From assembly GCA_964654825.1 (NCBI GenBank), contig CAZZKG010000014.1:1416-65415 (forward strand): a DNA stretch of 64,000 nucleotides, given 5' to 3'. Below the pieces are notes generated by a model that saw only the letters and a list, made by a program, of their open reading frames with translations, was not told the DNA's origin and did not search any database. Positions 14,713-31,615 of the stretch are shown piece after piece. How positions within the stretch are numbered: position 1 is the stretch's first letter; every line of letters begins with the position of its first letter. Source of the DNA: an uncultured Gemmatimonadota bacterium (lineage in GTDB: Bacteria > Gemmatimonadota > CAZMKB01). The translations under genes were made by a program, and so were the position numbers.

Positions 14713-14725
14713 GGATCCCGCTCTC

Positions 14726-17176: not shown

Positions 17177-17919
17177 ATTTCGCGTTTACTCCAGTGGTTT
17201 GAAACCAGCCTGATGTGATTGGCGACCATTTCGACGGTCTTCATCCTGGTCTTACGATCCCGGATGTCATAACGCTGCCGGCATGGTACCTCGGCGATGC
17301 GATTAGACAAACCTGCAACATGGACGAGCAGCTCGGTATTCGCAGCTTTGGTCCTGAAATTGAGAAGACCATCCTCGTATTTACCCAGGAGCCTCTTCAA
17401 AACCGTCATCCGGTATGCTCTGAGCATCGAGAGATAGTCTTTTACCCCTTCGATAGCGTACAGGTTCCTGAGCAGCAGATGAAGGAGAATCGTGGTGAAC
17501 CTGACCTTGAAAGGAGCATTCACCACTTCTCCGCCTTTCGTGAATCCGGAGGCTATTACCACATCGGCGCCTTCCTCTATCGCTCTCACCATGTCCGGAA
17601 CCGTACTCGAGTCACTTGTAAAATCGGTCTCGACTGTGATAAGGATATCTCTTTCGGGAGATTTCGAATCGTCGGTGGCTATCTGGATGAGTTTTCTGAG
17701 ACAGTACCCCAGACCCATGTTTTCTCTATTCCTGACGGTTGTGAGCGGGAGCAGCTTCTCGTATGTCTTCACCATTTCCCAGGTGTTGTCCGTACTGTTA
17801 TCATCCAGGGTGACGATCTTGAAATTACCCCTGAGGCCTTCCATGACCTCTTTCAGTTTGTACAGCGTAATCCCTATGGTGGGTTCCTCATTGTAAACGG
17901 GTAAGCAGAAATATATCAC
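17173..17919 (-). CDS. GT2 glycosyltransferase (polyprenyl-phosphate sugar transferase, DPM1/GtrB-like)
   Basis: IYFCLPVYNEE...VTLDDNSTDNT... GT-A fold motifs. Confidence 0.8.
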   Translation of the reverse strand: MIYFCLPVYNEEPTIGITLYKLKEVMEGLRGNFKIVTLDDNSTDNTWEMVKTYEKLLPLTTVRNRENMGLGYCLRKLIQIATDDSKSPERDILITVETDFTSDSSTVPDMVRAIEEGADVVIASGFTKGGEVVNAPFKVRFTTILLHLLLRNLYAIEGVKDYLSMLRAYRMTVLKRLLGKYEDGLLNFRTKAANTELLVHVAGLSNRIAEVPCRQRYDIRDRKTRMKTVEMVANHIRLVSNHWSKREI

Positions 17920-17936
17920 TTTCCCTCTCCTGATTA

Positions 17937-19343
17937 TCAGTATGCGTGATCATCGCGTAAAAACTTTGCGATCGTCAACAGAATAATTTTTACGTCGAAC
18001 CAGAATGACCAGTTTTTGATGTAGAAAAGATCCATCTGCGTTCGCGTCTCTATCGGTGAATCACCTCGCAGCCCGTTCACCTGTGCCCATCCCGTGATGC
18101 CGGATTTTATCTTGTGCCGCATCATGTACCTCGGGATTCTCTTTTTGAAAGCGTCGACGAACACTTCGCGCTCGGGCCTCGGTCCGACAAAACTCATGTC
18201 ACCTTTGAACACGTTCCAGAACTGCGGGAGCTCATCCAGGCTGAATTGTCGGAGAAACTTCCCCATGGTTGTACGCCTCGGATCATTCTTCCTCGCCCAC
18301 ACCGCACCTGTTTCCCTTTCTGCATCCTCTCTCATGGACCTGAACTTGTACATTGTGAACTTGCGTCCATCATACCCGATCCTCTCCTGAATGTAGAACA
18401 CCGGTCCCGGGCTGGTGAGTTTGACGAGCAGCGCGATCAGGGCGAGAACAGGCGAGAGGACCAGGAGACCGAGGAGAGACAGGGAAATGTCGAATGCCCT
18501 CTTCGAGACCCTTCGCAACCCGTGAAGCGGACGCTCGGTGAGGTTGATGATGGGCATCCCCTCGAACTCTTCCGCACTCGCGTTGAGGGCGACGAACTGG
18601 GAAAAATCCGGTATGATCCTGATGTCGACCACCTGCTCACTCAAAAGCCATAAAATATGTTCGAGGTCCCGATCGGCATGTCTCGGGAGCGCGATGAAAA
18701 CCTGGTCGATCGTCCGTTCACCGAGCACACTCGTCAGATCCTCTATCTTCCCAAGAACCGGTATCCCCGGGAGCGGCTCTTCCCCTATCACCAGGCCATC
18801 ATCCACAAACCCTTCGAGGATGAGACCCAGGTGCGTGTGTTTTTCGATGTTGCGGGCGAACTCCAACCCTGAGTGACTCGCGCCCACAATCAGGATATAG
18901 CGTAGATTGAAACCCTTAGCCCTAAGGTACCGCAGGATGAGTTTGACACCGATCCTGAACGACGAGAGCCCGAGAACGGTTATAAACCAGAAGTAGACGA
19001 TCATGCCCCGGGACAGCGAAATCCCCCGGTAGAAGAATGTCACGATACCTGCGATGCATATTGCCAGTGTGATCCCCTGAACGATTCTCGTAACCTCCCA
19101 GGAGAGTTTCTGGGTTCTCCTGGACCGGTAGAGCCCCCGTGTCTGTAGAGTAAAGAGGCTGATGAGGATCATGAGAGTCGAGAACAGAAGATAGGACGTG
19201 ATCGGGGGAAGCCCCTTGACGAGTCTCCCGGGGAACAGGGAAAAACGTAGATGGTATGCAGCAATCCACGATCCCAGGATGATGGCGGCATCGCTTGCCA
19301 TGAGCGACACTACGAAGAGCCTGCTGTACCGTTTAAGCATCAA
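17937..19343 (-). CDS. Undecaprenyl-phosphate sugar phosphotransferase (WbaP/WcaJ/EpsL family), the initiating enzyme of polysaccharide assembly
   Basis: N-terminal TM helices plus a C-terminal bacterial sugar transferase domain (...KRAFDISLSLLGLLVLSPV...PGPVFYIQERIGYDGRKFTMYKFRSM...DELPQFWNVFKGDMSFVGPRP...). Confidence 0.85.
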   Translation of the reverse strand: MMLKRYSRLFVVSLMASDAAIILGSWIAAYHLRFSLFPGRLVKGLPPITSYLLFSTLMILISLFTLQTRGLYRSRRTQKLSWEVTRIVQGITLAICIAGIVTFFYRGISLSRGMIVYFWFITVLGLSSFRIGVKLILRYLRAKGFNLRYILIVGASHSGLEFARNIEKHTHLGLILEGFVDDGLVIGEEPLPGIPVLGKIEDLTSVLGERTIDQVFIALPRHADRDLEHILWLLSEQVVDIRIIPDFSQFVALNASAEEFEGMPIINLTERPLHGLRRVSKRAFDISLSLLGLLVLSPVLALIALLVKLTSPGPVFYIQERIGYDGRKFTMYKFRSMREDAERETGAVWARKNDPRRTTMGKFLRQFSLDELPQFWNVFKGDMSFVGPRPEREVFVDAFKKRIPRYMMRHKIKSGITGWAQVNGLRGDSPIETRTQMDLFYIKNWSFWFDVKIILLTIAKFLRDDHAY

Positions 19344-20511
19344 AAACCTCTGCCCTCTTCAGACACCTCTCGACTTCAGCTTTAAATTTTTCCCTGAAGA
19401 CCTCCGGCCGGAATCCCAGCGCCATATCTCTCAGTGAACGGGGGTCGAATTTGGAACCTTCGATGAGATCCATTCCATTAATAATAGCCGAAACATCTTC
19501 TTTTGGAAAGAGCACCCCGCCGCTTACACGGACAGGATCGGTGAACAACGGTACTCCACGCCCCGCTTCTACGAGGTGATCACTCTCCCCCGGGCCGGTG
19601 ATCGTTTCGAGCACCCCTCCCCTTCCATAGGCCAGGACCGGCCTCCCGCAGGCAAGCGCCTCGAGGGGGACTATCCCGAAATCCTCTTCTCCCGGGAAGA
19701 TGATTGCCCTCGCCTTCGCAAGACACTTCACGAGCTCTCTGTGTTCGAGCCACCCCAGAAACCTAATGGATCGGCTCGCCCCGACCAGTTTCTTCAGCCG
19801 TTTCTCATCCTGACCCGTGCCGATGAGGTACAGGGTCCGGCCGCTTCTCCTGCATGCCTCGATGGCCAGGTCGGCACGCTTGTAAGGCGCGAATGATCCG
19901 AGGTAGAGATAGTAGTCTTTGACGTCTTCATCGATGTAAAAATCCCGCACCTCAACCGGAGGGTAGACGACAGTCGAATTCCTGCGGTAGAACTTGGTTA
20001 CCCTCCTCTTCACATGCAGGGAATCCGTAATAAAATGATCAACCCTGTGTGATGAAGCCGCGTCCCAGGTCCGAAGTGCTGAGAGCACAGGTGCGAGTAA
20101 AGCTTTGAACGGCCGGCTCATTCTGTCAGCCCCGAAATATTCATCACCCAGCACCCAGGCGTACCTCATGGGTGTCAGAACGTAGGATATGTGAGGACAG
20201 TAGGGCGGAGTGATGACCCCCTTCGCGGCACAGTGACTGATGGAGATTACGAGATCGTAGCCCCTCAGATCGAACGCTTCGACGGCAAACGGGTACAGAG
20301 GCAGATAGTACCGGTAAAACCTGTCCTTCAGTGGGAATCGGTCGAGGAAGGAAGTGTGAACGACCCTTTTCTCGATGTCCGGATGAACCGAACCTCTCTT
20401 CCAGAATATCGTGTAGAGGTGAGCTCCTGGAAAAATGTCGAGCACATGTTTCAGAACCTTCTCCCCTCCCCTCATCCCCGTCAGCCAATCGTGAACTATG
20501 GCAACATTCAC
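19333..20511 (-). CDS. GT4 glycosyltransferase
   Basis: GT-B fold with the C-terminal GT4 motif ...EDFGIVPLEALACGRPVLAYGRGG... . Confidence 0.75.
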   Translation of the reverse strand: MNVAIVHDWLTGMRGGEKVLKHVLDIFPGAHLYTIFWKRGSVHPDIEKRVVHTSFLDRFPLKDRFYRYYLPLYPFAVEAFDLRGYDLVISISHCAAKGVITPPYCPHISYVLTPMRYAWVLGDEYFGADRMSRPFKALLAPVLSALRTWDAASSHRVDHFITDSLHVKRRVTKFYRRNSTVVYPPVEVRDFYIDEDVKDYYLYLGSFAPYKRADLAIEACRRSGRTLYLIGTGQDEKRLKKLVGASRSIRFLGWLEHRELVKCLAKARAIIFPGEEDFGIVPLEALACGRPVLAYGRGGVLETITGPGESDHLVEAGRGVPLFTDPVRVSGGVLFPKEDVSAIINGMDLIEGSKFDPRSLRDMALGFRPEVFREKFKAEVERCLKRAEVFDA

Positions 20512-20514
20512 CTA

Positions 20515-21798
20515 TCACCTGTCCGGTTCGGCTTCAGTGAAAAGAAATTTCCTGAGGAAGTAAACAATATATACACCGCCGAACACCCTGACGGCAAGTG
20601 AGCTGAAGGCGGCCCCGAGCCCCCCGTAAAGCGGAATGAGTACGAGGTTACCGGCGAAATTGATCCCGAGCTGTGCCAGATTGAGATAGGCGAGCAGCTC
20701 GACCCTGTCCAGAGAATAGAGCGCGAGGCTCGCCGGGTTGCATATCACACTCACCAGGAAGCACAGGAGAAGGACCCTGAATATTGGAACGGCATCGATG
20801 AACCGTGCCCCGAACAGGGTACCCACAACAGGCCGTGCGAACAGGAGGAGAGGGACTGCAACGAGGATCGAGAGTGGAGTGAAACGCAGGGTGTCAACAA
20901 CGTACCTTCGGAGCTCGTGCCTGCCCGTCAGTCCCGTTGCCTTCGGGAGAAGAGCCGTGGTGAGTGCGCCGGTGACCAGGGGAAAAAGATAGGCGAGCTG
21001 GCTGGCGCTCGAGTACCTGCCGACCTCTCCGGAACCTGCCATGGCGGTCAGCATGAGAACGTCCAGCCGGATGATGAACATGGTGGCGAATGTCGACACC
21101 ATGACCCATTTCCCGAATCCCATGATCTCTTTGATCACAGCTGTCGTGTCTCCACGAGCACCCATGAATGTCCGCGGGATGAGGGTCATGCCGAGGAGGA
21201 AGGCAATGAACGGCGCAGCGGCGAACGCAATAATGACTGAATCGGGCTCCATTCTACCCAGAAATACGAGGAGGGCGACGAGGATTACCTGTACCGCCCC
21301 CTGGGTCACGGCAACCAGCACGTACCGCCTGAAGCTCTGGTATGTCTGGAGAACTCCGAGAGGGAAATTCGCAAGCAGAATACAGAAGGATCCGCAGAAG
21401 GCAACCAGAAGGGGAAGCGCGAGCTCAACCTTGCCGAACACCCCGGTGGCTATTCGCGGGGCGGCGAGCATCAGCAGCACGAGTACCGGCAGGCCGAGGA
21501 GTAATTTCAGGAGAAAGGTGGTCTTGAATATGAATGCTGTTTTCCCCGGTTCCTTTTCCAGGTATTTGGACCCGTACCGGACGGAGCTCGTGGAGAGGCC
21601 GAAGTCGACCGCCTGAGCCGACAGAGTCATGACCGCCTGGGCCGAGGCTACGATCCCGAAGCCCTCCGGTCCGAGTCCCCTGATGGCGAGAAGGTTCGAC
21701 AGGAAAACGAGTATCGATTTGAACGTGTTGCCGAAGAAGACAGTGGCAACGTCCCTGGCGGTTTTTCCCTTTAACCTCTGGAGGATTTCGTTGTACAT
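20515..21798 (-). CDS. wzx: Polysaccharide flippase (Wzx, MOP superfamily)
   Basis: ~12 predicted TM helices and polysaccharide-biosynthesis-protein family features. Start consistent with MYNEILQRLKGKTARDVATVFFGN. Confidence 0.75.
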   Translation of the reverse strand: MYNEILQRLKGKTARDVATVFFGNTFKSILVFLSNLLAIRGLGPEGFGIVASAQAVMTLSAQAVDFGLSTSSVRYGSKYLEKEPGKTAFIFKTTFLLKLLLGLPVLVLLMLAAPRIATGVFGKVELALPLLVAFCGSFCILLANFPLGVLQTYQSFRRYVLVAVTQGAVQVILVALLVFLGRMEPDSVIIAFAAAPFIAFLLGMTLIPRTFMGARGDTTAVIKEIMGFGKWVMVSTFATMFIIRLDVLMLTAMAGSGEVGRYSSASQLAYLFPLVTGALTTALLPKATGLTGRHELRRYVVDTLRFTPLSILVAVPLLLFARPVVGTLFGARFIDAVPIFRVLLLCFLVSVICNPASLALYSLDRVELLAYLNLAQLGINFAGNLVLIPLYGGLGAAFSSLAVRVFGGVYIVYFLRKFLFTEAEPDR

Positions 21799-23027
21799 GC
21801 CCCCTCACCACCCCCGAGGGAATGATAGAACCGTGAGATGCTGTCCGTATCCCTTGAGACGAACAGCTCCTGTGCCGCCCTCCTGCACTTCTCCCGGATC
21901 TCCGCCTGGTTCACGCGGTATTGTGTAATAAACTCGACGATCCGATCGATATCGTCTCTGATCGTATCGGTACTCATAACGACTCCGAGACCCCTCTGCT
22001 CCACGACTCCACTCGCGTCCCCGACTCCCTCTGAGATTATAACGGGCAATCCGCACGCAAGGTACTCGGGGAACTTGCGAGGGGATGCCACCCTGCTCAT
22101 CTCGTTCGCATCTCTGAGGAGCACACCCAGGTCTCCCATGGCAAGGTACTGCGGCATGTCGTCAAAATCGAGCCTCATGGGGGCAACGTTACCGCGAAAG
22201 GAGCCGTGTTCTCTGAGGAACTCCTTCAGACCTTTCTGGTGCAAAGTGAAGAGGAGGAGATACGCATCAGGCACACTGTCGAGAACACCCCTGAACAAAC
22301 GGGCAATCGCACCGGGGCATTGATGGGGCATGAGACTTCCCGAGTGAATCAGGATCAGCCTGTCATCGATTCCGAAAAGATTTCGGTAGTAATTCCGGCT
22401 CTCCGGCCTCGGTCTGAACGAGGCTTCGATGGTGTTGGGCTCGACGAGGATTCTCTCCCCGGGATAGGACAGCACTTCCGTGAGACGATCTCTGAACGGC
22501 TGACTCACACACACCACACCGTGGGAATTCACGAGCGCCCGTCTCTCGATCAGTTTGAGGACCATATAGCTGATGCCGCGGAAGAAGACACTCGTCCGGG
22601 AGCGAACATCCTCCGGCACCAGATTGTGATAATCGAGCACAATGGTACAGTGTTTCCGGGCGGTCCTCCCGAGAAGTGGAAGAATGGCGAAGAGATTTTC
22701 TATGTGTATGCGGGCGATCTCGCCCCTCCTGATCATTTTCTTCAGCACCTTCCTCACCCGGTAAATCGCCGTGATAATAAAAAAGTACCTAATGATGAGA
22801 ATGTCGGGCGAAAGGAAAAAATCCAGGCTGTCGAGGTCGAGGGGTATGAGTTTCGACTTGAGCAACTTGAGGTTCGCTCCCCCTCCGACTCCGAAGACGA
22901 TCATGTAGACGGGTCCGAGTTTGCCCAGTTTGGATATCTGGCTTTTCACGCGTTCCCGGTATGCAGCGTCCTTCAGGATGATGTGACTCGAAACGACCAG
23001 AGTGCCGTCATGAGAAGAATCAGGCAA
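21771..23027 (-). CDS. GT4-like glycosyltransferase
   Basis: C-terminal GT4-type motif ...SPRKFPEYLACGLPVIISEGVGD...; first gene of the minus-strand glycan operon. Confidence 0.65.
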   Translation of the reverse strand: MPDSSHDGTLVVSSHIILKDAAYRERVKSQISKLGKLGPVYMIVFGVGGGANLKLLKSKLIPLDLDSLDFFLSPDILIIRYFFIITAIYRVRKVLKKMIRRGEIARIHIENLFAILPLLGRTARKHCTIVLDYHNLVPEDVRSRTSVFFRGISYMVLKLIERRALVNSHGVVCVSQPFRDRLTEVLSYPGERILVEPNTIEASFRPRPESRNYYRNLFGIDDRLILIHSGSLMPHQCPGAIARLFRGVLDSVPDAYLLLFTLHQKGLKEFLREHGSFRGNVAPMRLDFDDMPQYLAMGDLGVLLRDANEMSRVASPRKFPEYLACGLPVIISEGVGDASGVVEQRGLGVVMSTDTIRDDIDRIVEFITQYRVNQAEIREKCRRAAQELFVSRDTDSISRFYHSLGGGEGACTTKSSRG

Positions 23028-23236
23028 AAAGCCTCCTCACCGATTCGGTTCCTTGATTTTCGGCAGTTCCCTTTTGCTCATGGCTGATCATCGAACCCGG
23101 TGGTGATGTGTACGGAAGGTCAAAGTGAATATCCTCGCTGTCTAGTAATAACATGGTGTGTGAATCCTGTCAACTTTTTCCGCGCCGAAGATCTGAGGAG
23201 GATCGCACATCACATATCTTCCCCTGTATGGTGGAC

Positions 23237-23265
23237 TTGACTTTTCTTTCCGGCAGGTGTATTTA
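23237..23265 (+). promoter_or_regulatory. Putative sigma70-type promoter for the plus-strand glycan operon
   Basis: TTGACT-N17-TATTTA in the divergent intergenic region. The first gene (23484) has a strong AAGGAGG RBS. Confidence 0.35.
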
Positions 23266-23483
23266 ATTTAAAACCGTTTCAGAGGGTTCCGGAGGAGCAT
23301 TTCCGACAGACCGGGACAGCCAGAAGTATATCACGTACCGGGTTTCGGTGTCCGGATGTTTCGATTGCTCGTTGGGCCTGATTCACTCCATTTCAGTAAT
23401 CTCACACGGCCTCGACAGGCTCTCCTTCAAACGTTATCCTGAAGACGGGCCTTATATATGCCACGTTCTAAAAGGAGGAATAG

Positions 23484-24608
23484 ATGGACAAGCGAAAACT
23501 GTTTTTCACACTCCTCATGTTCATCTTGTCTTCTTCGACCATGTTCGGTCAGGGTTCGAAGCGGATCGTTCTGAACCACTTCATCGCCGATCCCGACCAG
23601 CGTACCCGGGTGTACATCACTGATGCCGATGGCGTCGGCCAGGATGTCACACTGACCTTCTACGGTGAGACCGGGGACATCATCGGTCAGAAGAGGATGA
23701 GCCTTCCCTCGAATGGGACTGTCGTCGTCAACCCTTTTGATGTCATCAAGAGACGTGCATACGGAAAAGCGGTAGCTGAAGCCAGTTCCAGGATAATTGG
23801 AGAGTACTGGCAGATCGTCGAGACAGAAAAAGCCGGATACTCCGTCGCGGTCCCTCTCCAACCTGCTCTGGGACATGACAGGCTTCTCGTCCAGCATTTC
23901 GTGTCCGATCCGGATCTGACATCGAACATTTATATTTCCGACACCCGCGGGAAGGGAGACATCCCGGTCGAAATCGCGTTTTTCGATGAGAGTTCCAATC
24001 TGCTCTCCAAGATCAACCGGACCATCCCCTCGAACGGGAGTCTGACCATTAAACCCTGGAGTGTGCTTCAGAAAAAGGTTGTCGGTTCCGCTCACATCAC
24101 AACTAAAGGCGGACCGATCGTCGGTGAGTACTGGCAGATCGTGAGTGGGAAGTTTGAGGACCCGAAAAAGGGTAAGAAACGATTCATGAATTATGCCGTG
24201 GCGGTCTCCCTCGACGGAATAATTGATACTCCTCTGAAGATTGTCGAGACTCCGACCGAGATCCGGCTGACACTGGAAGTACACTTCGATGTGGACAAGG
24301 CGGACATACGGGATGTGGACAAACCGAACCTCGAAGAAGCCTCCAAGATCATCAAGCGTTACTTCTCCGATGGGGAGGTTGTGATGGTGGAGGGTCACAC
24401 CGACGAGACTGGAGAAGCCGACTACAACCTGAAGCTCAGTCAGCAGAGAGCCAACACAGTGGAGGGTTATCTCGTGTCGAGTCTCGGCTTGAGTAACGAT
24501 CAGCTCAAAGCTATAGGGTATGGTGAAACGAGACCGGTTGTACCGGGAGCTACCGGTGCGGCAGGGCAGGTGAACCGCAGGGTAGTGTTCAGTATTCCGA
24601 AGATCTGA
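23484..24608 (+). CDS. Secreted OmpA-family protein with two N-terminal copies of an unrecognised ~90-aa repeat ending in GEYWQIV
   Basis: Signal peptide. Repeats at ~27-113 and ~134-220. C-terminal OmpA domain VEGHTDETGEADYNLKLSQQRANTVEGYL...GYGETRPV...NRRVVF. Confidence 0.7.
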   Translation: MDKRKLFFTLLMFILSSSTMFGQGSKRIVLNHFIADPDQRTRVYITDADGVGQDVTLTFYGETGDIIGQKRMSLPSNGTVVVNPFDVIKRRAYGKAVAEASSRIIGEYWQIVETEKAGYSVAVPLQPALGHDRLLVQHFVSDPDLTSNIYISDTRGKGDIPVEIAFFDESSNLLSKINRTIPSNGSLTIKPWSVLQKKVVGSAHITTKGGPIVGEYWQIVSGKFEDPKKGKKRFMNYAVAVSLDGIIDTPLKIVETPTEIRLTLEVHFDVDKADIRDVDKPNLEEASKIIKRYFSDGEVVMVEGHTDETGEADYNLKLSQQRANTVEGYLVSSLGLSNDQLKAIGYGETRPVVPGATGAAGQVNRRVVFSIPKI

Positions 24609-24621
24609 GGAGGGTATCACG

Positions 24622-25386
24622 ATGAGAAACTGGAAATATCTCATACCATTGATTTTGTTTTTGATCTCTACCACACCGATTCTGGCTCAGGATTACGGAA
24701 AACTCGTGCTCAATCACATCGTGTCGGATCCCAACCAGGTGACGCGGATATACGTGACCGACTTCGAGGGTGTGGCACCCGAGGTGACTGTTACGTTTTA
24801 CTCGGAGGCGGGAGACATTATCGGACAGAGGACAATGTCGATCCCGAGAAACGGCACCGTACCGGTAAAACCTCACGACATACTGCAGCGAGCGGTCGTC
24901 GGAAACGTGCGGGTTGACGGGCACGGGGCTCACATCGCCTGCGAGTACTGGCAGATCATCGAGGATAAAAAGAATGACTTCTCCTATTCGATCGGGGTAC
25001 CCGGACAGGCGGCGGGAGGCCACCACAACCTCATCGTACAGCACTTCGTTGCGGATCCCGACCTCAACACGATCATCTTCCTCACCAATCCCGATGACGG
25101 ATCTTCCGCCGGCGTGTCACTCGAATTCCATGACGAGAGCGGCGGTGTTCTGGCAAAAGTGGAGAGGACCATCGACGCGAACGCGACCCTCGTCCTCAAA
25201 CCTTATGACGTCCTAAAGAAAAAAGCATACGGGAATGTCCACATAAAATCGTCCGGCGCAGCGGTGACCGGGGAATACTGGCAGCTCGTGGATGTCAAAA
25301 GAAAGGACGAGAAGACCGGCAAGAAAAAAGTGGAGAAATATGGAGTGGCGATACCACTTCAGTCTCTAACGCTCTTCGGTAAATAA
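24622..25386 (+). CDS. Secreted paralog of the upstream gene: two copies of the same ~90-aa repeat, no OmpA domain
   Basis: Signal peptide. Repeats KLVLNHIVSDPNQVTRIYVTD...CEYWQIIE and NLIVQHFVADPDLNTIIFLTN...GEYWQLVD. Confidence 0.7.
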   Translation: MRNWKYLIPLILFLISTTPILAQDYGKLVLNHIVSDPNQVTRIYVTDFEGVAPEVTVTFYSEAGDIIGQRTMSIPRNGTVPVKPHDILQRAVVGNVRVDGHGAHIACEYWQIIEDKKNDFSYSIGVPGQAAGGHHNLIVQHFVADPDLNTIIFLTNPDDGSSAGVSLEFHDESGGVLAKVERTIDANATLVLKPYDVLKKKAYGNVHIKSSGAAVTGEYWQLVDVKRKDEKTGKKKVEKYGVAIPLQSLTLFGK

Positions 25387-25453
25387 GGGAACCGGCTCAC
25401 TTCAATCATGAGAGAATAGGGTAGAGAATCTCTACCCTATTTTTTTCCGGATT

Positions 25454-26500
25454 ATGAAAATTATCATGGTAACCCAGTTCTTCCATCCCCACATCGGGGG
25501 GATCGAGAGGCACGTGCTCCACGTTGCGAAGGATCTGATCGAACGGGAAGACGAGGTACGCATCATCACCTGGAGATACGACAACCGGCTCCCCGAAATC
25601 GAAGAGATCGAGGGTGTCAATGTACACAGGATCCTCGATGAGGGCTGGTACGGAGGAACCCTGAGGAGACTGAGGGGGTGGCGCGGGATGTGGGCTTCCA
25701 GGAAAATCTGGATGGATGCGGACGCAATTCATTTTCACGATTACACCCCGCTGATCGAATGGTACCTCCCCTTTCTGGTTTTAAACCGGCGGATTTTCAT
25801 CACTTTTCACGGCTACGAAGGATACCCGATACCGAGGTTCTCCATCCTACTGCGAAGGTTCTCCCATCTCATCACCCGGGATGCCATATGCGCCGGCGAT
25901 TACATTCCCGCGTACTACGGGACCTCGTGCCGGTATGTTACCTATGGCGGTGTCGAGATAGACGCAAGAGGATCACCCGGGGACAGAAGGGACGCTGTCT
26001 TCCTCGGCAGTCTCAGGCGGGACACGGGGATCCTGGGATACATCGAAGCTCTTTCCATCCTGAAGTCGAAGTGGAGTGTCGACCTCGTGCTGAACATTAT
26101 CGGGGATGGTCCACTGAGAGAACAGGTGATTACTCTGGCAGGGGAAAAGGGAGTCCAACTCGAATTCCACGGCCTGAGACCGGATCCCGCTCCTTTCCTT
26201 GCCAGCTCGAGAGTCGCCCTGGTAGATTCCTACCTGGCGATACTGGAGTCGATGGCGATGAGGACCCCGGTGTTCTCATACTATGACAATCCCCTGAAAA
26301 AAGATTATCTCTCCTGTTTTCCGGCCAGCGGGGAAATCATCGGGATCAGAAAGGATCCGGAGAAACTCGCGATGGACCTGCGTGATTATTTCGAGAGACC
26401 TGATACCTTCGAAGAGAGAATCGAGAGGGGTTTCGCCTTCGCACGGGAGCAGACATGGAGGAAAGTGGCGGATCTCTACAGGAACCTGTACGCATCATGA
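25454..26500 (+). CDS. GT4 glycosyltransferase
   Basis: MKIIMVTQFFHPHIGGIERHV... N-terminus and a GT-B C-terminal domain. Confidence 0.75.
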   Translation: MKIIMVTQFFHPHIGGIERHVLHVAKDLIEREDEVRIITWRYDNRLPEIEEIEGVNVHRILDEGWYGGTLRRLRGWRGMWASRKIWMDADAIHFHDYTPLIEWYLPFLVLNRRIFITFHGYEGYPIPRFSILLRRFSHLITRDAICAGDYIPAYYGTSCRYVTYGGVEIDARGSPGDRRDAVFLGSLRRDTGILGYIEALSILKSKWSVDLVLNIIGDGPLREQVITLAGEKGVQLEFHGLRPDPAPFLASSRVALVDSYLAILESMAMRTPVFSYYDNPLKKDYLSCFPASGEIIGIRKDPEKLAMDLRDYFERPDTFEERIERGFAFAREQTWRKVADLYRNLYAS

Positions 26501-26552
26501 AGCTCCATCATACAGTTATCGATCGGTTGTTTCTGCCTCAAAGGAGGTAGTG

Positions 26553-27122
26553 ATGAGGAACTTTCTCCAGAGAACAGCACGGCTCCTCTCGGGACTCGCC
26601 TGGAAGGAGCCATCCTTCAAGCTCAGGGGTCACCATGTCGAGATCACCAGGGACAGCGTCTTCGGCGACAGCGAGAATATCTCCTTCGGGAATTATGTCT
26701 ACATCGGACCGGAGGCGTACTTCTGGGGAGTGGGCGGGATTACGCTCGATGACCATGTCATCATCGGGCCGCGGGTAACGATTGTTTCGTCCAATCACCG
26801 CTACGAGGGAGCCGAGGCGATTCCCTACGACGGTACCACCATCCTCGGGCCTGTCAGAATATGCTCCCACGTATGGGTCGGTGCGGGAACACTCATCGTT
26901 CCCTCTGTAACCGTAGGCGAAGGTGCCGTTATCGCCATGGGTTCCGTCGTGACGAAGAATGTCCCTCCGTGTATGGTTGTCGGCGGAAACCCCGCGGTGA
27001 TCATCAAGGAGCGGGACAGGGAAGCGTACGAGAGACTGAAACGAGAGAGCAGATTTTACCTGGAAATGAAGGCGAGAGGAGAAATAACCTGGAGAAAGGT
27101 CTTTGAGGATGAGATCCGTTAA
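26553..27122 (+). CDS. Left-handed beta-helix (hexapeptide-repeat) O-acetyltransferase
   Basis: Hexapeptide repeats ...IGPRVTIVSSNH..., VWVGAGTLIVPSVTVGEGAVIAMGSVV. Start taken at the Met after an AAAGGAGG RBS; the track's longer 26382 start overlaps the GT4 gene. Confidence 0.75.
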   Translation: MRNFLQRTARLLSGLAWKEPSFKLRGHHVEITRDSVFGDSENISFGNYVYIGPEAYFWGVGGITLDDHVIIGPRVTIVSSNHRYEGAEAIPYDGTTILGPVRICSHVWVGAGTLIVPSVTVGEGAVIAMGSVVTKNVPPCMVVGGNPAVIIKERDREAYERLKRESRFYLEMKARGEITWRKVFEDEIR

Positions 27123-28314
27123 AATCCTCGTTTCGGGATGGTACGGGTGTGAGAACACGGGAGATGACGCCATCCTCGATGGAATAATCGACACCATCAC
27201 ATCGCTTGGGTTCCCCGCGGAGGTAACCGCCCTCACATATGGTCCGATCGAATCCAGGCAGAGTGACACACCTGTTCGGACCCGCCCTCATCTCCCGTCG
27301 GGATTCTCCCGAGGGTTTCTCTCAGCTGTAAACGGATCACTGGCGGTCACGCTCGGCGCTTTCAGGAAAGCGGACCTGCTGCTGCTGGGCGGCGGCGGGT
27401 TTCTGGCCGACTGGCAGAGAGAAGCCCCCTGGCTGTGGCTGAGACAGCTCATCCTGGCAAAAGCGATGGGCGCAAAAACCATGCTCTACGGTCTGGGTGC
27501 CGGACCGTTCCTCACACGGAGAGGCAGAATTCTGACGAGGACGATCATCAACAGGTGTGCTGATCACGTGACGGTCAGAGACGAGCGGTCCCGGCGGTGG
27601 CTGCTCGATATCGGAGTCGAGAAACAGATTACCACAACCGGCGATCCCTCCTTCCGCCTGTCACAGGGCACCGGAGGGGATACCCGCTTCGTGGAGGGGC
27701 TGAAGACCACGGGGGCACCTCTCTTCGGGATCAGCGCGATTCCGCTGTTTACGACTCGAGAGTGGGGATTTCGAACCGACAGGTTTCTCGCACTGAAGCA
27801 AGGGTTGTCGGAACTGGTCGAGTACATAAGCGGCACACTCGGATATTACGTCCTGGGGATACCATTCATGAAGATGGACCGAGAATTCCTGCTGTCCATC
27901 ACTTCATCTCTCAACCGGGAGTCCCGCACCATTCTCGATCCCGGTATCAGTCCCCTGTCACTTCTCCCGGTCTTCGCAAATCTGGAGGCCTTCATCGGCA
28001 TGAGATACCACTCCCTCCTCTTCTCCGCTCTCACCGCCACACCGTTTTTCGGCATCATTTATCATCACAAGGGGAGGGAACTCATCAGGGACCTCGACAT
28101 GGAGCCCTTCTCCCAGGAGGTGGGCGACGGGAAGATGGCTTCTGACAGAGACCTCGAGGTCGACCTGGCAAAAGAGAGCATCGGACGTCTTATCACGGGG
28201 AGTGAGGCGATACGGGAAAAACTGCAGGACCGGACGGGGCACCTGAAGGAACGTGAGCAGGCCAACGGCAGGCTCCTGAAGCGGATTCTGGAGGAGATAG
28301 GACGGTCCCGATGA
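27103..28314 (+). CDS. Polysaccharide pyruvyl transferase (CsaB/WcaK family)
   Basis: KILVSGWYGCENTGDDAIL... N-terminus and ...LLLLGGGGFL... core. Confidence 0.75.
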   Translation: MRMRSVKILVSGWYGCENTGDDAILDGIIDTITSLGFPAEVTALTYGPIESRQSDTPVRTRPHLPSGFSRGFLSAVNGSLAVTLGAFRKADLLLLGGGGFLADWQREAPWLWLRQLILAKAMGAKTMLYGLGAGPFLTRRGRILTRTIINRCADHVTVRDERSRRWLLDIGVEKQITTTGDPSFRLSQGTGGDTRFVEGLKTTGAPLFGISAIPLFTTREWGFRTDRFLALKQGLSELVEYISGTLGYYVLGIPFMKMDREFLLSITSSLNRESRTILDPGISPLSLLPVFANLEAFIGMRYHSLLFSALTATPFFGIIYHHKGRELIRDLDMEPFSQEVGDGKMASDRDLEVDLAKESIGRLITGSEAIREKLQDRTGHLKEREQANGRLLKRILEEIGRSR

Positions 28315-29222
28315 AGGTATCGCTCATCGCCACGGTTCTCAACGAGGAGGGAGGGATCGAGAAATTTATCAAATCGATCCTCTCTCAATCAAGGCTTCCC
28401 GATGAGATCGTTCTGGTCGACGGCGGGTCCACCGACCGGACGGTTTCCCTCATCGAACAACACCTCGCGGGCGATGTCCCCGTCAGACTCATCATCAATC
28501 CGGGATGTAACATCTCAGAGGGAAGAAACCGTGCTGTGCGAGAAGCTTCTTTCGACGTCCTGGCCGTCACCGATGCAGGATGCCTCCTCGAGGCAAGCTG
28601 GCTGGAGGAGATCACCGCCCCGATGGAGAGCAATCCGGCCGTCGATGTCGTGGCAGGTAGCTACCGGGTCTCGGCTCAGAGCAGATGGGAACGGGTAACA
28701 TCAGCGTATCTCATGCCCTGTCCGGACCGCATAAGCCCCGGGATGCCATCAGGCAGGTCGACATGTTTCCGGCGGAGTGCCTGGGAAGCGGCGGGCGGGT
28801 ATCCTGAGTGGCTGCGTCACGCCGAAGACAGCTACTTCGCCCGAGAACTGGCGAGACGGGGTTCGCGTTTTCATTTCGCGCCCGGGGCGATCGTCAGGTG
28901 GAAACCGAGATCGACACCGTGGTCTTTTTTCAAACAGTACTTCCGCTATGCCGTCGGCGACGGGAAATCAGAGTTGTCCACCCGGCACTATTTACTCAAG
29001 ATAATGTTATATCTTTCGGGCCTGATCCTCGCGCTGGCCGGGAAGATCAACGTACTCCTCTTCCTCATCGCTCTCTACGTCATTTTCGTGATGGTCCGCT
29101 ACCTGGTGCGGGGCAAGGAAAGACATCTCCTCTGGATGCTCCCCCCGGTTATTTTTCTCCATGATATTGCCCAGGTGACCGGTTATATTTTCGGTACAAT
29201 CTCCGGGGGATCCGAAACGTGA
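28311..29222 (+). CDS. GT2 glycosyltransferase
   Basis: VSLIATVLNEEGGIEKFIKSILSQ...DEIVLVDGGSTDRT... . Confidence 0.75.
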   Translation: MKVSLIATVLNEEGGIEKFIKSILSQSRLPDEIVLVDGGSTDRTVSLIEQHLAGDVPVRLIINPGCNISEGRNRAVREASFDVLAVTDAGCLLEASWLEEITAPMESNPAVDVVAGSYRVSAQSRWERVTSAYLMPCPDRISPGMPSGRSTCFRRSAWEAAGGYPEWLRHAEDSYFARELARRGSRFHFAPGAIVRWKPRSTPWSFFKQYFRYAVGDGKSELSTRHYLLKIMLYLSGLILALAGKINVLLFLIALYVIFVMVRYLVRGKERHLLWMLPPVIFLHDIAQVTGYIFGTISGGSET

Positions 29223-29241
29223 ACGTGCGCTGGACGGGACG

Positions 29242-30342
29242 ATGAAAATCGGTATTGTCGCCTACAAGTTCTTCCCGGTCGTGGGGGGCGCGGAAGCTTA
29301 CCTCCATGACCTGCACGGAATCCTCTCCGCAGCCGGCCACTCGGTGACCGTGTACCAGGCCCGTTCCGGCGAACGTCATCCGGGCATACACAGCCTCCCG
29401 AAACTGCCTGCATTCGTACCGAAACTGATTGCCTTTGACCTGGTTCTTCCCCTGGGCCTCCCCCGGCTGGTCCGGGAGGACATAGTCATCATCAGCTATC
29501 CTGAACATTTCCCGCCTATCTTCTGGCATCCACGTACAATCGTCATCTCACACGGATCGACGTGGACTCACGAACCGGAGGGTGTCAGAAAGGATCTCAG
29601 GATGTTGTCGGCGCGATGGGCTTACAGGAAAGCGAAAGGGTTCGTTTTCAATGACACGTTCACGCTGAGAGAGCTGGGGGTCCCGATAAAGCCGGGCGAG
29701 ATGGCCTTCTCCCAGGTGACAGAGAGAAGATGGTACATCCCCAACTGCGTGGACACAGGGCTCTTTACCAGGCGTCCCGGAATCCGGAAGATCGTGGATA
29801 AAAAACCGATACTCGTCCCGAGAAATTTTACCTACCCCCGGGGGATAGATCTCGCACTCGAGGCCTTCTCCCGGTTACTGGATTATCGGCAGGACGTGCA
29901 TCTTCTTCTCGCCGGGGAGGCCATCAGGGACATGCCGGAGTCCATCCGGTACGAGCAGGAGCTCCGAAGTATGGTGGAACGTCTATCACTCCATGAGAAA
30001 GTCTCATTCATCGGCAGGTACTCCCGCTCTGAAATGCCCGCTGTCTATTCGTCAGCGCTGGTAACTCTCATACCTTCCAGGATGAGCGAAGGGACATCTC
30101 TAGCCGCACTGGAGAGCATGGCGTGCGGTACCCCGGTCGTGACAACTCACGTGGAAGGCCTCATGGATATACCGGGACTCAAGTGCCTCCCCACACCTGA
30201 CGGTATCTTACAGGGCCTCAGGACAGCCCTCGAGACTCGGGAGGAGCTGGCGACGGAGCAGCAAAAGGAAGTGCGGGAGAAATTCGACAGGAAGCTCTGG
30301 GAGAAGGGCTGGCTCAGGGTTATCGAGGAGGTCTCGGGGTGA
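29242..30342 (+). CDS. GT4 glycosyltransferase
   Basis: MKIGIVAYKFFPVVGGAEAY... and C-terminal ...EGTSLAALESMACGTPVVTTHVEGL... . Confidence 0.75.
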   Translation: MKIGIVAYKFFPVVGGAEAYLHDLHGILSAAGHSVTVYQARSGERHPGIHSLPKLPAFVPKLIAFDLVLPLGLPRLVREDIVIISYPEHFPPIFWHPRTIVISHGSTWTHEPEGVRKDLRMLSARWAYRKAKGFVFNDTFTLRELGVPIKPGEMAFSQVTERRWYIPNCVDTGLFTRRPGIRKIVDKKPILVPRNFTYPRGIDLALEAFSRLLDYRQDVHLLLAGEAIRDMPESIRYEQELRSMVERLSLHEKVSFIGRYSRSEMPAVYSSALVTLIPSRMSEGTSLAALESMACGTPVVTTHVEGLMDIPGLKCLPTPDGILQGLRTALETREELATEQQKEVREKFDRKLWEKGWLRVIEEVSG

Positions 30343-30746
30343 AAATCGGCATCGATGTCAGGAAAATCCGGGACACCGGCATCGGGACATACATCAGGAA
30401 CATCATCACCCGGATGCTGTCCATCGGGGATGATGAGAAAGAGTTTGTCCTCTTTGGCCATCCCGGCGACAGGGACTACCTCAACCTGCCCGTCTCAGAA
30501 GCAATGGCGAAAGGCGTGCCTGTTGTGGCCTCCGGCGTCTCGAGTCACCCGGAAGTCGCCGGTGACGCGGCTCTCATGGTCGACCCCGAAGATCACCGGG
30601 GTGCGGCGGAGGCGATGATTAGGATAGTCACAAACCGGGAGGAACGCGACTCATTCATCCGGAGAGGACTCGAGCGGGCCAGGCTCTTCACCTGGGATGA
30701 AACAGCCAGAAAGACTCTCGCCTGTTACCGGGAGGTACGGGCATGA
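30339..30746 (+). pseudogene. Internally deleted GT4 glycosyltransferase remnant (135 aa, in-frame, still translationally coupled to both neighbours)
   Basis: The first ~50 aa (MKIGIDVRKIRDTGIGTYIRNIITRML...) match a GT4 N-terminus. Residues ~51-135 (VSEAMAKGVPVVASGVSSHPEVAGDAALMVDPEDH...FTWDETARKTLACYREV) match a GT4 C-terminus. The ~230-aa middle is missing. 4-nt ATGA overlaps at both ends. Confidence 0.5.
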
Positions 30747-31612
30747 TCACCTGTCACGCCGGCACTGATGCTGCGGAACCCGTATTTTCAATACTGATTC
30801 CTTCCTGGAACAACCTGGATTTCCTCAGGTTGTGTATCACCAGCATACGGAAAAATTCGACGTTCGAACATCAGGTTGTGGTGCACGCGAACGAGGGAAC
30901 CGACGGGACGCTCGGCTGGCTGAGCGAGGAACATATTGATCACAGTGTATCAAAGTCAAATATCGGGATCTGTCGTGCCGTGAATGAGGCGTTCTCCCTC
31001 GCGAAAGCCGGTCACATCGTGTATATGAACGATGACATGTACGTGTGCCCCGGCTGGGACTTTCATCTGCAGCGGGAGATCGACTCGATCGGACACAACA
31101 TGTTTTTTCTCTCCTCCACGATGATCGAACCCGTGAGGACGAGCAACAACTGCGTCATCGCCCCGAAGGACTTCGGGAGCTCACCGTTGGATTTCCGGGA
31201 GAGTGAGCTGCTGGCATCCTTCGAATCCTTTCCCTTCGAGAACCGGATGGGAAGCACATGGCCTCCGAACGTGACGCACCGCTCGTTGTGGGAGCAGGTC
31301 GGGGGATTCAGTGTCGAGTTCAGTCCGGGGATGTATTCGGACCCGGATTTTTCGATAAAACTCTGGAAAGCCGGTGTCCGGTACTTCAAGGGTGTCGGGA
31401 AAAGCAGAGTCTACCATTTCATGTCCAGGTCCACCGGGAGGGTGACGAAGAACAGAGGCAGAAAACGTTTCCTCATCAAATGGGGTATCAGCTCGTCCAC
31501 GTTTACGGCCAGGGTGCTGAGAAGAGGCGAAGTCTTTACCGGACCTCTCCCGGAGCATGATCTGAAACCTCCACTCGCAGACCGCATCAAACGGATATTC
31601 ACACGGTGGTGA
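30743..31612 (+). CDS. GT2 glycosyltransferase
   Basis: FSILIPSWNNLDFLRLCITSI... GT-A motifs. Confidence 0.7.
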   Translation: MITCHAGTDAAEPVFSILIPSWNNLDFLRLCITSIRKNSTFEHQVVVHANEGTDGTLGWLSEEHIDHSVSKSNIGICRAVNEAFSLAKAGHIVYMNDDMYVCPGWDFHLQREIDSIGHNMFFLSSTMIEPVRTSNNCVIAPKDFGSSPLDFRESELLASFESFPFENRMGSTWPPNVTHRSLWEQVGGFSVEFSPGMYSDPDFSIKLWKAGVRYFKGVGKSRVYHFMSRSTGRVTKNRGRKRFLIKWGISSSTFTARVLRRGEVFTGPLPEHDLKPPLADRIKRIFTRW

Positions 31613-31615
31613 GTC

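What the first reader, a model, noticed from the sequence alone, without database searches (positions are those of the whole stretch)
23484..25386. Tandem paralogous secreted proteins built from an unrecognised ~90-aa repeat ('EYWQ' repeat), one fused to OmpA, heading an exopolysaccharide operon
Each gene encodes a signal peptide plus two copies of a repeat, giving four copies in total. Two copies are a-type and two are b-type, and the two types are clearly homologous. The conserved positions follow the pattern L(V/I)xxHFVxDP(D/N)xxTxIY(I/V)(T/S)(D/N)...(V/I)x(L/V)xF(Y/F)xExGx(I/L)(I/L)...R(T/M)(I/S)PxNG(T/S)(V/L)x(V/I)(K/N)PxDV(I/L)xK...GEYWQ(I/L)V. Each repeat is followed by a (Y/F)x(V/Y)A(V/I)PLQ strand. 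The first protein adds a C-terminal OmpA peptidoglycan-binding domain; the second is repeats only. I cannot assign the repeat to any described domain family. They are the first two genes of a 10.5 kb operon of GT/acetyl/pyruvyl/methyl-transferase genes, so a role in anchoring or exporting the polysaccharide, or as an outer-membrane/peptidoglycan tether, is plausible.
Basis: seen in the sequence. Interest (0 to 1): 0.75.

Follow-up and report, generated by a model that had tools for sequence, protein, structure and literature searches.

The report
Paired cell-wall-anchored sugar-binding-like envelope proteins
Two neighbouring genes at the head of a surface-sugar gene cluster encode secreted proteins made of two copies each of a small beta-sandwich domain that is a divergent, unannotated branch of the known ASRT/TM1070 ("ASRAH") family, one of them tied to the cell wall by an OmpA domain. 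The domain is therefore not new, but the paired, wall-anchored arrangement is a new variant whose function has not been tested.

Summary
Window 23484..24608 (374 aa) and 24622..25386 (254 aa) each encode a signal peptide plus two homologous repeats, four in all, and the first also carries an OmpA domain.

The repeat is not an unknown fold:
- AlphaFold models of both proteins (pLDDT 87 and 79) show eight-stranded beta-sandwiches.
- A broadened sequence profile also finds these two proteins in the PDB (E 5e-4 and 0.014).
- Remote relatives match Pfam DUF5719 and ASRT.

It therefore belongs to the ASRAH superfamily (De Souza, Iyer and Aravind 2009), which is predicted to bind sugar and occurs as dyads or tetrads. 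It forms a separate "EYWQ" family that no Pfam or NCBIfam model captures.

What is new is the arrangement. In 47 distinct related pairs from uncultured Glassbacteria-like and Ignavibacteria/Bacteroidota genomes, two-domain genes almost always sit next to each other (2+2 domains). They occur either as an OmpA-fused pair or as an unanchored pair. At least one kind lies inside a Wzx/glycosyltransferase cluster in 34 of 62 loci.

Best reading: a periplasmic, peptidoglycan-anchored four-domain lectin-like complex that handles the cluster's polysaccharide. This is inferred, not shown. Interest is moderate.

The parts
23472..23478 (+). Shine-Dalgarno-like AAGGAGG, 5 nt upstream of the P1 start codon
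   Evidence: Read directly from the sequence. It supports the 374-aa start rather than the 355-aa NCBI gene call (P0183).
23484..24608 (+). P1 gene, 374 aa: signal peptide, ASRAH-like dyad, then OmpA-like peptidoglycan-binding domain
23484..23552 (+). P1 signal peptide (aa 1-23; no cysteine, so SPase I type)
   Evidence: Sequence MDKRKLFFTLLMFILSSSTMFGQ|G. Modelled as a low-confidence helix, aa 4-20. A leader is conserved in the orthologues.
23553..23870 (+). Repeat 1a (P1 aa 24-129), an eight-stranded beta-sandwich
23871..24218 (+). Repeat 1b (P1 aa 130-245), a beta-sandwich with a Lys-rich insertion before the last strand
24258..24599 (+). OmpA-like domain (P1 aa 259-372). The TD...N..LS..RA motif is invariant in 18 orthologues.
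24622..25386 (+). P2 gene, 254 aa: signal peptide plus ASRAH-like dyad only
24691..25017 (+). Repeat 2a (P2 aa 24-132)
25018..25365 (+). Repeat 2b (P2 aa 133-248). It carries Asn at the ASRAH strand-2 position (LTNP).
25454..33995 (+). Co-directional downstream genes: GT4, hexapeptide acetyltransferase, pyruvyl transferase, GT2, GT4, GT4 remnant, GT2, methyltransferase, and a secreted 520-aa protein with no family match
17173..23027 (-). Divergently oriented part of the same polysaccharide cluster: GT2, Bac_transf-like initiating transferase, GT4, Wzx flippase, GT4

Best explanation
P1 and P2 are Sec-secreted periplasmic proteins. Each is a dyad of eight-stranded beta-sandwich domains from a divergent, so far unmodelled family (signature ...HFVSDP...[DN]...G...G...P...G...[EQ]YW[QE]) of the ASRT/TM1070 ('ASRAH') superfamily, whose members are predicted to bind sugars.

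Proposed mechanism:
1. P1 is fixed to peptidoglycan through its C-terminal OmpA-like domain.
2. P1 pairs with P2 so that the 2+2 domains form a tetrad like the TM1070/ASRT homotetramer and the four-domain single-chain relatives.
3. The complex binds the glycan made by the surrounding Wzx/Wzy-type cluster, or its undecaprenyl-linked precursor, in the periplasm.
4. It thereby holds, guides or presents the polymer for modification, ligation or export near the cell wall.

Shown here: the gene structure, the repeats, the fold and superfamily relationship, the OmpA domain, the leader peptides, the strict gene pairing and the neighbourhood conservation.

Inferred: the periplasmic location, the heteromer, carbohydrate binding and the identity of the ligand.

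The confidence of 0.5 is for the whole statement. By part: about 0.9 for the fold and superfamily, about 0.75 for a wall-anchored periplasmic location, and about 0.45-0.5 for the heteromer and for binding the cluster's glycan.
For: **Fold.**
- P2 model: pLDDT 87, pTM 0.80, eight strands per domain.
- Foldseek: 1nc7 probability 1.00, target-normalised TM-score 0.64-0.75; all other hits are below 0.2.

**Sequence.**
- A single-repeat profile finds 259 proteins (E <= 1e-3) among 1.84 billion representatives.
- Of 55 remote hits, 26 match PF18986 (DUF5719), 4 match PF07100 (ASRT) and 3 match Amidase_3.
- A broadened profile seeded from the window repeats ranks ASRT first in the PDB (E 5e-4) and TM1070 fourth (E 0.014).
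- The ASRAH strand-2 Asn column holds D, D, D, N in the four window repeats, and D in 62% and N in 34% of 204 family repeats.

**Pairing.**
- There are 47 distinct adjacent dyad-dyad gene pairs, mostly -4 to +57 nt apart.
- Remote relatives carry 4 domains in 102 of 178 proteins and 2 domains in 48.
- This matches the 'dyads or tetrads' rule and the TM1070 tetramer described in PMC2739507.

**Anchor.** OmpA Pfam hit, with the canonical D/R motif invariant.

**Context.**
- The pair sits next to GT4, Wzx, hexapeptide transferase, GT2 and Bac_transf genes in all 8 window-clade loci.
- A dyad-only pair sits in GDSL-GT4-Wzx-Hexapep-AcT-PIG-L-[pair]-MeT-GT4 clusters in 23 loci of the sister lineage.
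- Three lone dyad genes also lie in GT/Wzx clusters.
- The actinobacterial ASRAH dyad family is likewise linked to a glycosyltransferase.
Against: - No carbohydrate binding has been shown for any ASRAH domain. The only experimental activity reported for ASRT itself is binding and looping of DNA (PMC8660804).
- The ligand-contacting H and C of TM1070 and the strand-1 Trp of the superfamily are not conserved here. Only 1 of 204 repeats has a Trp in its first 14 residues.
- The narrow family profile alone does not reach ASRT or TM1070 by sequence. The direct Pfam hit to DUF5719 is below threshold.
- Eighteen OmpA-fused pairs in the sister lineage lie in a neighbourhood without polysaccharide genes. 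The anchored pair may therefore have a general envelope role, and the window clade's gene order may be secondary.
Confidence: 0.5

Rival explanations
1. General envelope tether. The OmpA-fused pair is a housekeeping periplasmic or outer-membrane-proximal structural component, such as a spacer or an organiser of wall architecture. It has no specificity for the polysaccharide of the neighbouring genes, and its position in the window clade's cluster is an accident of gene order.
For: - In 18 loci of Ignavibacteria/Bacteroidota-labelled genomes, the OmpA-fused pair lies between HflX/TP_methylase and DUF92 with no glycosyltransferases nearby.
- OmpA-like domains are generic wall anchors.
Against: - The same genomes (20 of 31) keep a second, OmpA-less pair inside the polysaccharide cluster. 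Lone dyad genes also sit in such clusters.
- In all 8 window-clade loci the pair stays adjacent to GT4 and Wzx genes down to 52-56% identity.
- Many remote relatives are fused to glycan-acting enzymes such as Amidase_3 and SpoIID.
Confidence: 0.22
2. Peptidoglycan-glycan binder. The beta-sandwich dyads recognise peptidoglycan or muropeptide sugars, as proposed for the amidase-fused ASRAH tetrads. P1/P2 would then be a multivalent wall-binding module, possibly attaching a wall-linked polymer.
For: - Remote relatives include Amidase_3 and SpoIID fusions.
- De Souza et al. proposed peptidoglycan binding for the amidase family.
- P1 already carries one peptidoglycan-binding domain.
Against: - This does not explain why OmpA-less pairs are embedded in Wzx/GT clusters in 23 loci.
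- A second wall-binding function in P1 would duplicate its OmpA domain.
- The family's signature residues differ from those of the amidase-linked relatives.
Confidence: 0.12
3. Non-carbohydrate function. The sandwiches act as a protein-protein scaffold, a binder of a small molecule or metal, or an enzyme that uses the invariant H, D, E, Y, W and Q residues.
For: - The invariant polar and aromatic residues could equally form a catalytic or metal site.
- The experimentally reported activity of ASRT is not sugar binding.
Against: - No family or structure match suggests an enzyme. All strong matches are ligand-binding-type sandwiches.
- A secreted location makes DNA an unlikely ligand.
- The neighbourhoods are dominated by glycan enzymes.
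Confidence: 0.08
4. One reading: a truly new domain with no relation to any described family.
For: No Pfam or NCBIfam model passes its threshold. No PDB sequence hit with the narrow profile.
Confidence: 0.03

Closest known systems
[quoted passage not shown]
   Same: Eight-stranded beta-sandwich of about 110 aa. They are the best structural matches by a wide margin. The strand-2 Asn position is kept as D or N. Both work in fours: a homotetramer there, 2+2 domains here.
   Different: - Those are cytoplasmic, single-domain and stand-alone; these are secreted, tandem and paired.
- The SHEshChhN signature and the strand-1 Trp are absent.
- There is no Pfam PF07100 hit.
- The reported ASRT activity is DNA binding.
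Actinobacterial cell-surface ASRAH dyad lipoprotein (De Souza et al. 2009), which I take to be Pfam DUF5719 (PF18986)
   Same: Secreted, two ASRAH domains per chain, and gene-linked to a glycosyltransferase. It is the only Pfam model with a near-threshold match to P2 (24.3 against 26.2 bits) and to many remote relatives.
   Different: - That family is a lipoprotein with a lipobox Cys and specific N- and C-terminal extensions. It neighbours WhiB and an inactive zincin, and it occurs as a single gene.
- Here there is no lipobox, no extensions, always two adjacent genes, an OmpA fusion, a Wzx/Wzy-type cluster and FCB-group candidate phyla.
Amidase_3-fused ASRAH tetrads of Chloroflexi (De Souza et al. 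2009)
   Same: Secreted, with four ASRAH domains acting on or near cell-envelope glycans. Such proteins are recovered by the window-repeat profile (P0049, P0057).
   Different: There the four domains are in one chain with a catalytic amidase. Here they are split over two genes, with a non-catalytic OmpA anchor.
Pal, YiaD and OmpA C-terminal-domain proteins
   Same: The C-terminal domain of P1 is a standard OmpA-like peptidoglycan-binding module.
   Different: - P1 has no lipobox, no beta-barrel and no glycine zipper.
- Every NCBIfam equivalog score is far below its cut-off, for example Pal at 77.7 against 125.
- The N-terminal partner domains are unique to this family.
AlgX and similar periplasmic polysaccharide-handling proteins (an SGNH domain plus a carbohydrate-binding module). 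This is a 'works like' comparison only.
   Different: There is no homology above the general sandwich level. AlgX belongs to a synthase-dependent pathway, whereas this cluster is Wzx-dependent.

Membership tests
ASRAH superfamily (ASRT/TM1070 homology; De Souza, Iyer, Aravind 2009) | Eight-stranded beta-sandwich with the TM1070/ASRT fold | tested here: met
ASRAH superfamily | Sequence-profile relationship to ASRT and its known relatives | tested here: met
   The relationship is transitive and weak. Broadened profile A6 reaches 2ii7 at E 5e-4 and 1nc7 at E 0.014. Of 55 remote hits, 26 are PF18986 and 4 are PF07100. The narrow profile alone is not significant.
ASRAH superfamily | Conserved Trp at the start of strand 1 | tested here: not met
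   Only 1 of 204 repeats has a Trp in its first 14 residues. The invariant Trp of this family lies in strand 7 (EYWQ).
ASRAH superfamily | Nearly invariant Asn at the end of strand 2 | tested here: inconclusive
   The aligned column holds D, D, D, N in the window repeats, and D in 62% and N in 34% of 204 repeats. The position is conserved but mostly as Asp.
ASRAH superfamily | Non-solo versions occur as dyads or tetrads | tested here: met
   All 112 complete family proteins in the loci examined have exactly 2 domains, and 47 distinct adjacent pairs give 2+2. Relatives have 4 domains in 102 of 178 proteins and 2 in 48.
ASRAH superfamily | Binds a sugar or other small molecule in a cleft on one sheet | not testable with these tools
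   This is a prediction even for the founding members. It needs binding assays or a ligand-bound structure.
Pfam DUF5719 (PF18986) | Score at or above the gathering threshold of 26.2 bits | tested here: not met
   P2 scores 24.3 bits (E 2e-5; profile positions 265-318 of 319 only). P1 scores 11.3 bits.
Actinobacterial ASRAH dyad lipoprotein (De Souza 2009), taken here to correspond to Pfam DUF5719 | Lipobox cysteine plus the family-specific N- and C-terminal extensions of the actinobacterial lipoprotein | tested here: not met
   There is no Cys in either leader (sequence). Matches cover only the part of the profile that overlaps the domain. The features are taken from PMC2739507.
Pfam ASRT (PF07100) | Pfam model match | tested here: not met
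   No hit at E <= 1 for P1 or P2.
OmpA-like peptidoglycan-binding domain (PF00691) | Pfam match above threshold, with the alpha/beta fold | tested here: met
OmpA-like peptidoglycan-binding domain | Conserved Asp and Arg that contact the diaminopimelate of peptidoglycan (own knowledge of the A. baumannii OmpA and Pal structures) | tested here: met
   HTD(307)...N315..LS..R(322)A is invariant in 18 orthologues. The residue equivalence is by motif only, not by superposition.
Pal / OmpA-family lipoproteins (NCBIfam TIGR02802, NF053611 and others) | Equivalog cut-off score and an N-terminal lipobox | tested here: not met
   The best scores are 90.9 against 175 (YiaD) and 77.7 against 125.35 (Pal). 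Matches cover only the C-terminal domain. There is no lipobox.
Classified carbohydrate-binding modules (CBM4, CBM32 and others) | Fold or sequence match stronger than the match to ASRAH | tested here: not met

The most novel reading that the evidence does not exclude
The paired dyads form a peptidoglycan-anchored hetero-tetrameric lectin ring. In these FCB-group lineages it would take over a periplasmic polysaccharide-handling step normally done by PCP/OPX (Wzz/Wzc/Wza) proteins, such as chain capture, length control or hand-over to ligation or export. No PCP/OPX genes were found in the 64-kb window or in the annotated orthologous loci. This would be a new class of Wzx/Wzy accessory component. 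In the Ignavibacteria-type genomes, the anchored pair and the cluster-encoded pair would work together as an eight-domain assembly.
Probability: 0.12. Interest if true: 0.7.

Novelty: new variant of a known kind. Interest (0 to 1): 0.4.

Why it matters
- It gives a fold and a superfamily to a protein family currently labelled only 'hypothetical' or 'OmpA family protein' in uncultured Glassbacteria-like and Ignavibacteria/Bacteroidota genomes.
- It adds a fourth family to the ASRAH superfamily, with a new architecture: a tetrad split over two genes, plus an OmpA anchor.
- It adds independent context evidence, from more than 30 Wzx/glycosyltransferase clusters, for the untested 2009 prediction that extracellular ASRAH domains bind envelope glycans.
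- If the complex handles the polymer in the periplasm, it points to an unstudied accessory step of Wzx/Wzy pathways in the FCB group.
- Practically, the alignment of 204 repeats could seed a Pfam or NCBIfam model.

Tried and rejected
- **Narrow profile against PDB sequences:** only chance-level hits, such as PL7 alginate lyase at E 0.58.
- **hhalign of the narrow profile against a TM1070 fragment:** not significant.
- **AlphaFold database fold search:** the library was unavailable.
- **Genomic context of the nearest four-domain relatives P0040 and P0041:** the contigs are under 3 kb, so there is no information.
- **Exact look-up of P0001 to name the source organism:** not on record.
- **Promoter and terminator scan around the pair:** counts are at chance level.
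- **Rfam scan of the whole window:** nothing found.
- **Search for an ops/JUMPstart element upstream of P1:** none found.
- **General O-glycosylation target, D-[ST]-[AILVMT] sequon (considered and rejected):** the motif is absent from both proteins by inspection.
- **SLH-like binding of a pyruvylated polymer (considered and rejected):** the pyruvyl transferase is missing from the sister-lineage clusters and from L002.
- **The 415-aa antisense ORF over P1 (considered and rejected):** it is a codon-aligned shadow frame seen in most loci.
- **Literature search for DUF5719:** no papers.
Full report
**Observation**

The two ORFs are exactly as described: 23484..24608 (+, 374 aa; P1) and 24622..25386 (+, 254 aa; P2). 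They are separated by 13 nt. An AAGGAGG lies 5 nt before the P1 start codon.

Each protein has a hydrophobic leader without a cysteine, followed by two repeats: P1 aa 24-129 and 130-245, and P2 aa 24-132 and 133-248. The a/a, b/b and a/b comparisons give about 50%, 44% and 34% identity. All six pairwise local alignment scores lie 30-57 SD above 300 shuffles. P1 and P2 align end to end over the repeat region (44% identity, E 8e-78). P1 ends in an OmpA domain (PF00691, 69.6 bits against a cut-off of 27.2).

Three corrections apply:
- The unit is 105-116 aa rather than about 90. The '(Y/F)x(V/Y)A(V/I)PLQ strand' is the eighth strand of the same domain.
- The proteins are not lipoproteins.
- 'Operon' rests only on 11 co-directional, tightly spaced ORFs (23484..33995).

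**What the repeat is**

Pfam and NCBIfam give no above-threshold assignment for the repeats. The only signal is a sub-threshold match of P2 to the C-terminal part of DUF5719 (24.3 against 26.2 bits).

A word-indexed search of 5.8 billion proteins finds only about 31 close relatives: 18 OmpA-fused and 13 repeat-only. One is labelled Candidatus Glassbacteria.

AlphaFold2 with these alignments gives confident models:
- P2: pLDDT 87, pTM 0.80.
- P1: pLDDT 79.
- Each repeat is an eight-stranded beta-sandwich with one short helix.

The fold searches all point to the same two proteins:
- Foldseek gives 1nc7 a probability of 1.00 with target-normalised TM-score 0.64-0.75. All other hits have TM below 0.2.

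Sequence evidence converges on the same answer:
- A profile of 54 single repeats, searched without a word index against 1.84 billion representatives, finds 259 proteins at E <= 1e-3.
- Of 55 remote hits, 26 match Pfam DUF5719, 4 match Pfam ASRT and 3 carry Amidase_3.
- A broadened profile of 70 domains collected from those hits, seeded with the window repeats, ranks ASRT first in the PDB (E 5e-4). TM1070 is fourth (E 0.014).
- The narrow profile alone does not reach them, so the relationship is remote.

These are the members of the 'ASRAH' superfamily defined by De Souza, Iyer and Aravind (Biol Direct 2009; PMC2739507). That paper describes the superfamily as follows:
- It is an eight-stranded sandwich.
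- It is predicted, not shown, to bind sugars.
- It occurs as solo cytoplasmic proteins, as dyads in an actinobacterial surface lipoprotein linked to a glycosyltransferase, or as tetrads fused to a muramoyl-alanine amidase.

I take the actinobacterial lipoprotein to be what Pfam now calls DUF5719; that equation is my inference.

**How this family differs**

Of the two signature residues of the superfamily, the strand-2 Asn position is retained, mostly as Asp. It is D, D, D, N in the four window repeats, and D in 62% and N in 34% of 204 distinct repeats. The strand-1 Trp is absent (1 of 204).

The family has its own signature. W86 is 100% conserved, Y85 99%, G41, G55 and G71 about 97%, F10 and P61 95%, D13 92% and Q87 87%.

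It is therefore a separate 'EYWQ' family within the superfamily, and it is not a member of Pfam ASRT or DUF5719.

**Surroundings and census**

In the window, the pair is preceded by a divergently oriented block on the minus strand: GT2, Bac_transf, GT4, Wzx and GT4. It is followed on the plus strand by GT4, hexapeptide acetyltransferase, pyruvyl transferase, GT2, GT4, a GT4 remnant, GT2, a methyltransferase and a secreted 520-aa protein with no family match.

A Wzy_C/O-antigen-ligase gene and a GT9 heptosyltransferase lie 18-22 kb downstream in the window. In orthologous loci they lie directly upstream of the pair. The product could therefore be an LPS-linked glycan rather than a free exopolysaccharide. 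No Wza, Wzc or Wzz gene was found among the window ORFs scanned.

A scan of one genome per species (GTDB) plus contig look-ups gave 61 related loci, all from metagenome-assembled genomes. Annotation against a panel of labelled neighbours shows three arrangements:

| Arrangement | Context | Loci | Lineage |
|---|---|---|---|
| (a) OmpA-fused + dyad pair | Inside a Wzx/GT cluster | 8 | Window clade only (Glassbacteria / 'Gemmatimonadota' labels) |
| (b) OmpA-fused + dyad pair | BatA-HflX-TP_methylase-[pair]-DUF92..., no glycan genes | 18 | Ignavibacteria / Bacteroidota / Chlorobiota-labelled genomes |
| (c) Dyad + dyad pair, no OmpA | GDSL-GT4-Wzx-Hexapep-acetyltransferase-PIG-L-[pair]-methyltransferase-GT4 | 23 | The same genomes as (b) |

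Further census results:
- Twenty of 31 genomes carry both an OmpA-type and a dyad-only locus.
- Three lone dyad genes also sit in GT/Wzx clusters, for example L006.
- The dyad genes are almost always adjacent, co-directional and -4 to +57 nt apart, in 47 distinct pairs.
- In a neighbour-joining tree, the two genes of each arrangement cluster together by arrangement. Pairing has therefore been kept, or re-created, in each lineage.
- Among the 178 relatives recovered by the profile, 102 proteins have four domains and 48 have two. This matches the 'dyad or tetrad' rule and the TM1070 tetramer described in the 2009 paper.

**Mechanism**

Shown:
- Secretion signals without a lipobox.
- Two ASRAH-type sandwiches per chain.
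- An OmpA-like domain with the invariant TD...N..LS..RA motif.
- Strict gene pairing.
- Recurrent embedding in Wzx-type clusters.

Inferred:
- P1 is held on peptidoglycan in the periplasm.
- P1 and P2 assemble so that 2+2 domains mimic the tetrad.
- The assembly binds the cluster's glycan or its lipid-linked precursor.
- It retains or presents the glycan for modification, ligation or export. SGNH/GDSL, deacetylase, acetyl- and methyltransferase genes and a possible glycoside hydrolase are conserved neighbours.

I put about 0.9 on the fold and superfamily assignment, about 0.75 on a periplasmic wall-anchored location, and about 0.45-0.5 on the heteromer and on binding of the cluster's glycan.

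The main rival is a general envelope tether without polysaccharide specificity. It is supported by arrangement (b). It is weakened by arrangements (a) and (c) and by the lone genes in glycan clusters. Peptidoglycan-sugar binding and a non-carbohydrate role remain possible. No ASRAH domain has been shown to bind sugar, and ASRT itself has been reported to bind and loop DNA (PMC8660804).

**Novelty and verdict**

The domain belongs to a superfamily described in 2009, and its closest structural neighbour has been in the PDB since 2003.

What has not been described, as far as the searched literature shows, is this family and its architecture:
- a tetrad split over two adjacent dyad genes;
- fusion of one of them to an OmpA anchor;
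- a conserved place in the Wzx/glycosyltransferase clusters of FCB-group candidate phyla.

I rate it a new variant of a known kind, of moderate interest (0.4). It is useful for annotation and gives a testable lead on periplasmic glycan handling. It is not surprising in kind, and there is no experimental function for any close relative.

The most novel reading not excluded is a lectin ring that substitutes for PCP/OPX-type functions. It gets about 0.12 probability.

Noticed in passing
window 23427..24674 (-): A 415-aa ORF lies fully antisense to P1, in the codon-aligned antisense frame. Similar long shadow ORFs cover the repeat genes in most related loci. This is most likely a by-product of rare TTA, CTA and TCA codons at 53-60% GC, not a gene.
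   Followed up: partly
window 30339..30746 (+): A 135-aa GT4 remnant has about 45 N-terminal residues joined to the C-terminal roughly 90 residues of a group-1 glycosyltransferase. The orthologous gene in L001 (16924..18018) encodes 364 aa. It looks like an internal deletion or a pseudogene inside the cluster.
   Followed up: no
window 32433..33995 (+): A secreted 520-aa protein with no Pfam hit is conserved beside the pair in L001, L004 and L009. It has a weak PDB match to the methylmannose polysaccharide hydrolase MmpH (7qsj, E 0.01), and its L006 counterpart has a faint MGH1-like_GH hit. It may be a periplasmic glycoside hydrolase of the pathway.
   Followed up: partly
window 23484..23543: The NCBI gene call for P1 is 355 aa (P0183). 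That length implies a start at Met20 (my inference from the length), which would remove the signal peptide. The AAGGAGG at 23472-23478 and the conserved leaders in the orthologues favour the 374-aa start.
   Followed up: yes
window 24144..24191 (P1 aa 221-236) and 25291..25341 (P2 aa 224-240): The b-type repeats of the window clade carry a Lys-rich insertion (KFEDPKKGKKRFMN; KRKDEKTGKKKVEK) between the EYWQ strand and the last strand. It has lower pLDDT and is absent from the Ignavibacteria-type relatives. It could contact an anionic (pyruvylated) polymer, but it does not track strictly with the presence of a pyruvyl transferase.
   Followed up: partly
L005, L013-L036 (arrangement b), e.g. L005 7758..19766: A conserved non-glycan neighbourhood surrounds the OmpA-fused pair in Ignavibacteria/Bacteroidota-labelled genomes: BatA, HflX, TP_methylase, [pair], a 500-aa DUF92 membrane protein, four proteins with no family match and a small HATPase_c protein. 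The meaning of this linkage is unknown.
   Followed up: no
window 8235..10085 (-) and 34020..35111 (-): The 8235..10085 protein ends in FlgD_ig and a sub-threshold T9SS C-terminal sorting domain. The 34020..35111 protein matches the GDSL panel, and its C-terminus looks like such a sorting domain by eye. This suggests a type IX secretion system, consistent with an FCB-group origin for the window.
   Followed up: no
window 1..64000; L001, L002, L004, L006: No Poly_export (Wza), Wzz or GNVR (Wzc) gene was found. I checked the window ORFs scanned (those of at least about 180-220 aa outside the cluster) and the precomputed Pfam lists of four orthologous loci. Wzx and a Wzy_C protein are present in or near most of them.
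   Followed up: partly
window 35148..44650 (-): Immediately downstream of the cluster lies a pentose-phosphate/glycolysis block on the minus strand. Transketolase, a transaldolase-PGI fusion and 6-phosphogluconate dehydrogenase have Pfam support. 6-phosphogluconolactonase-, glucokinase- and G6PD-like ORFs were judged by eye from the translations. This is ordinary metabolism, unrelated to the finding.
   Followed up: no
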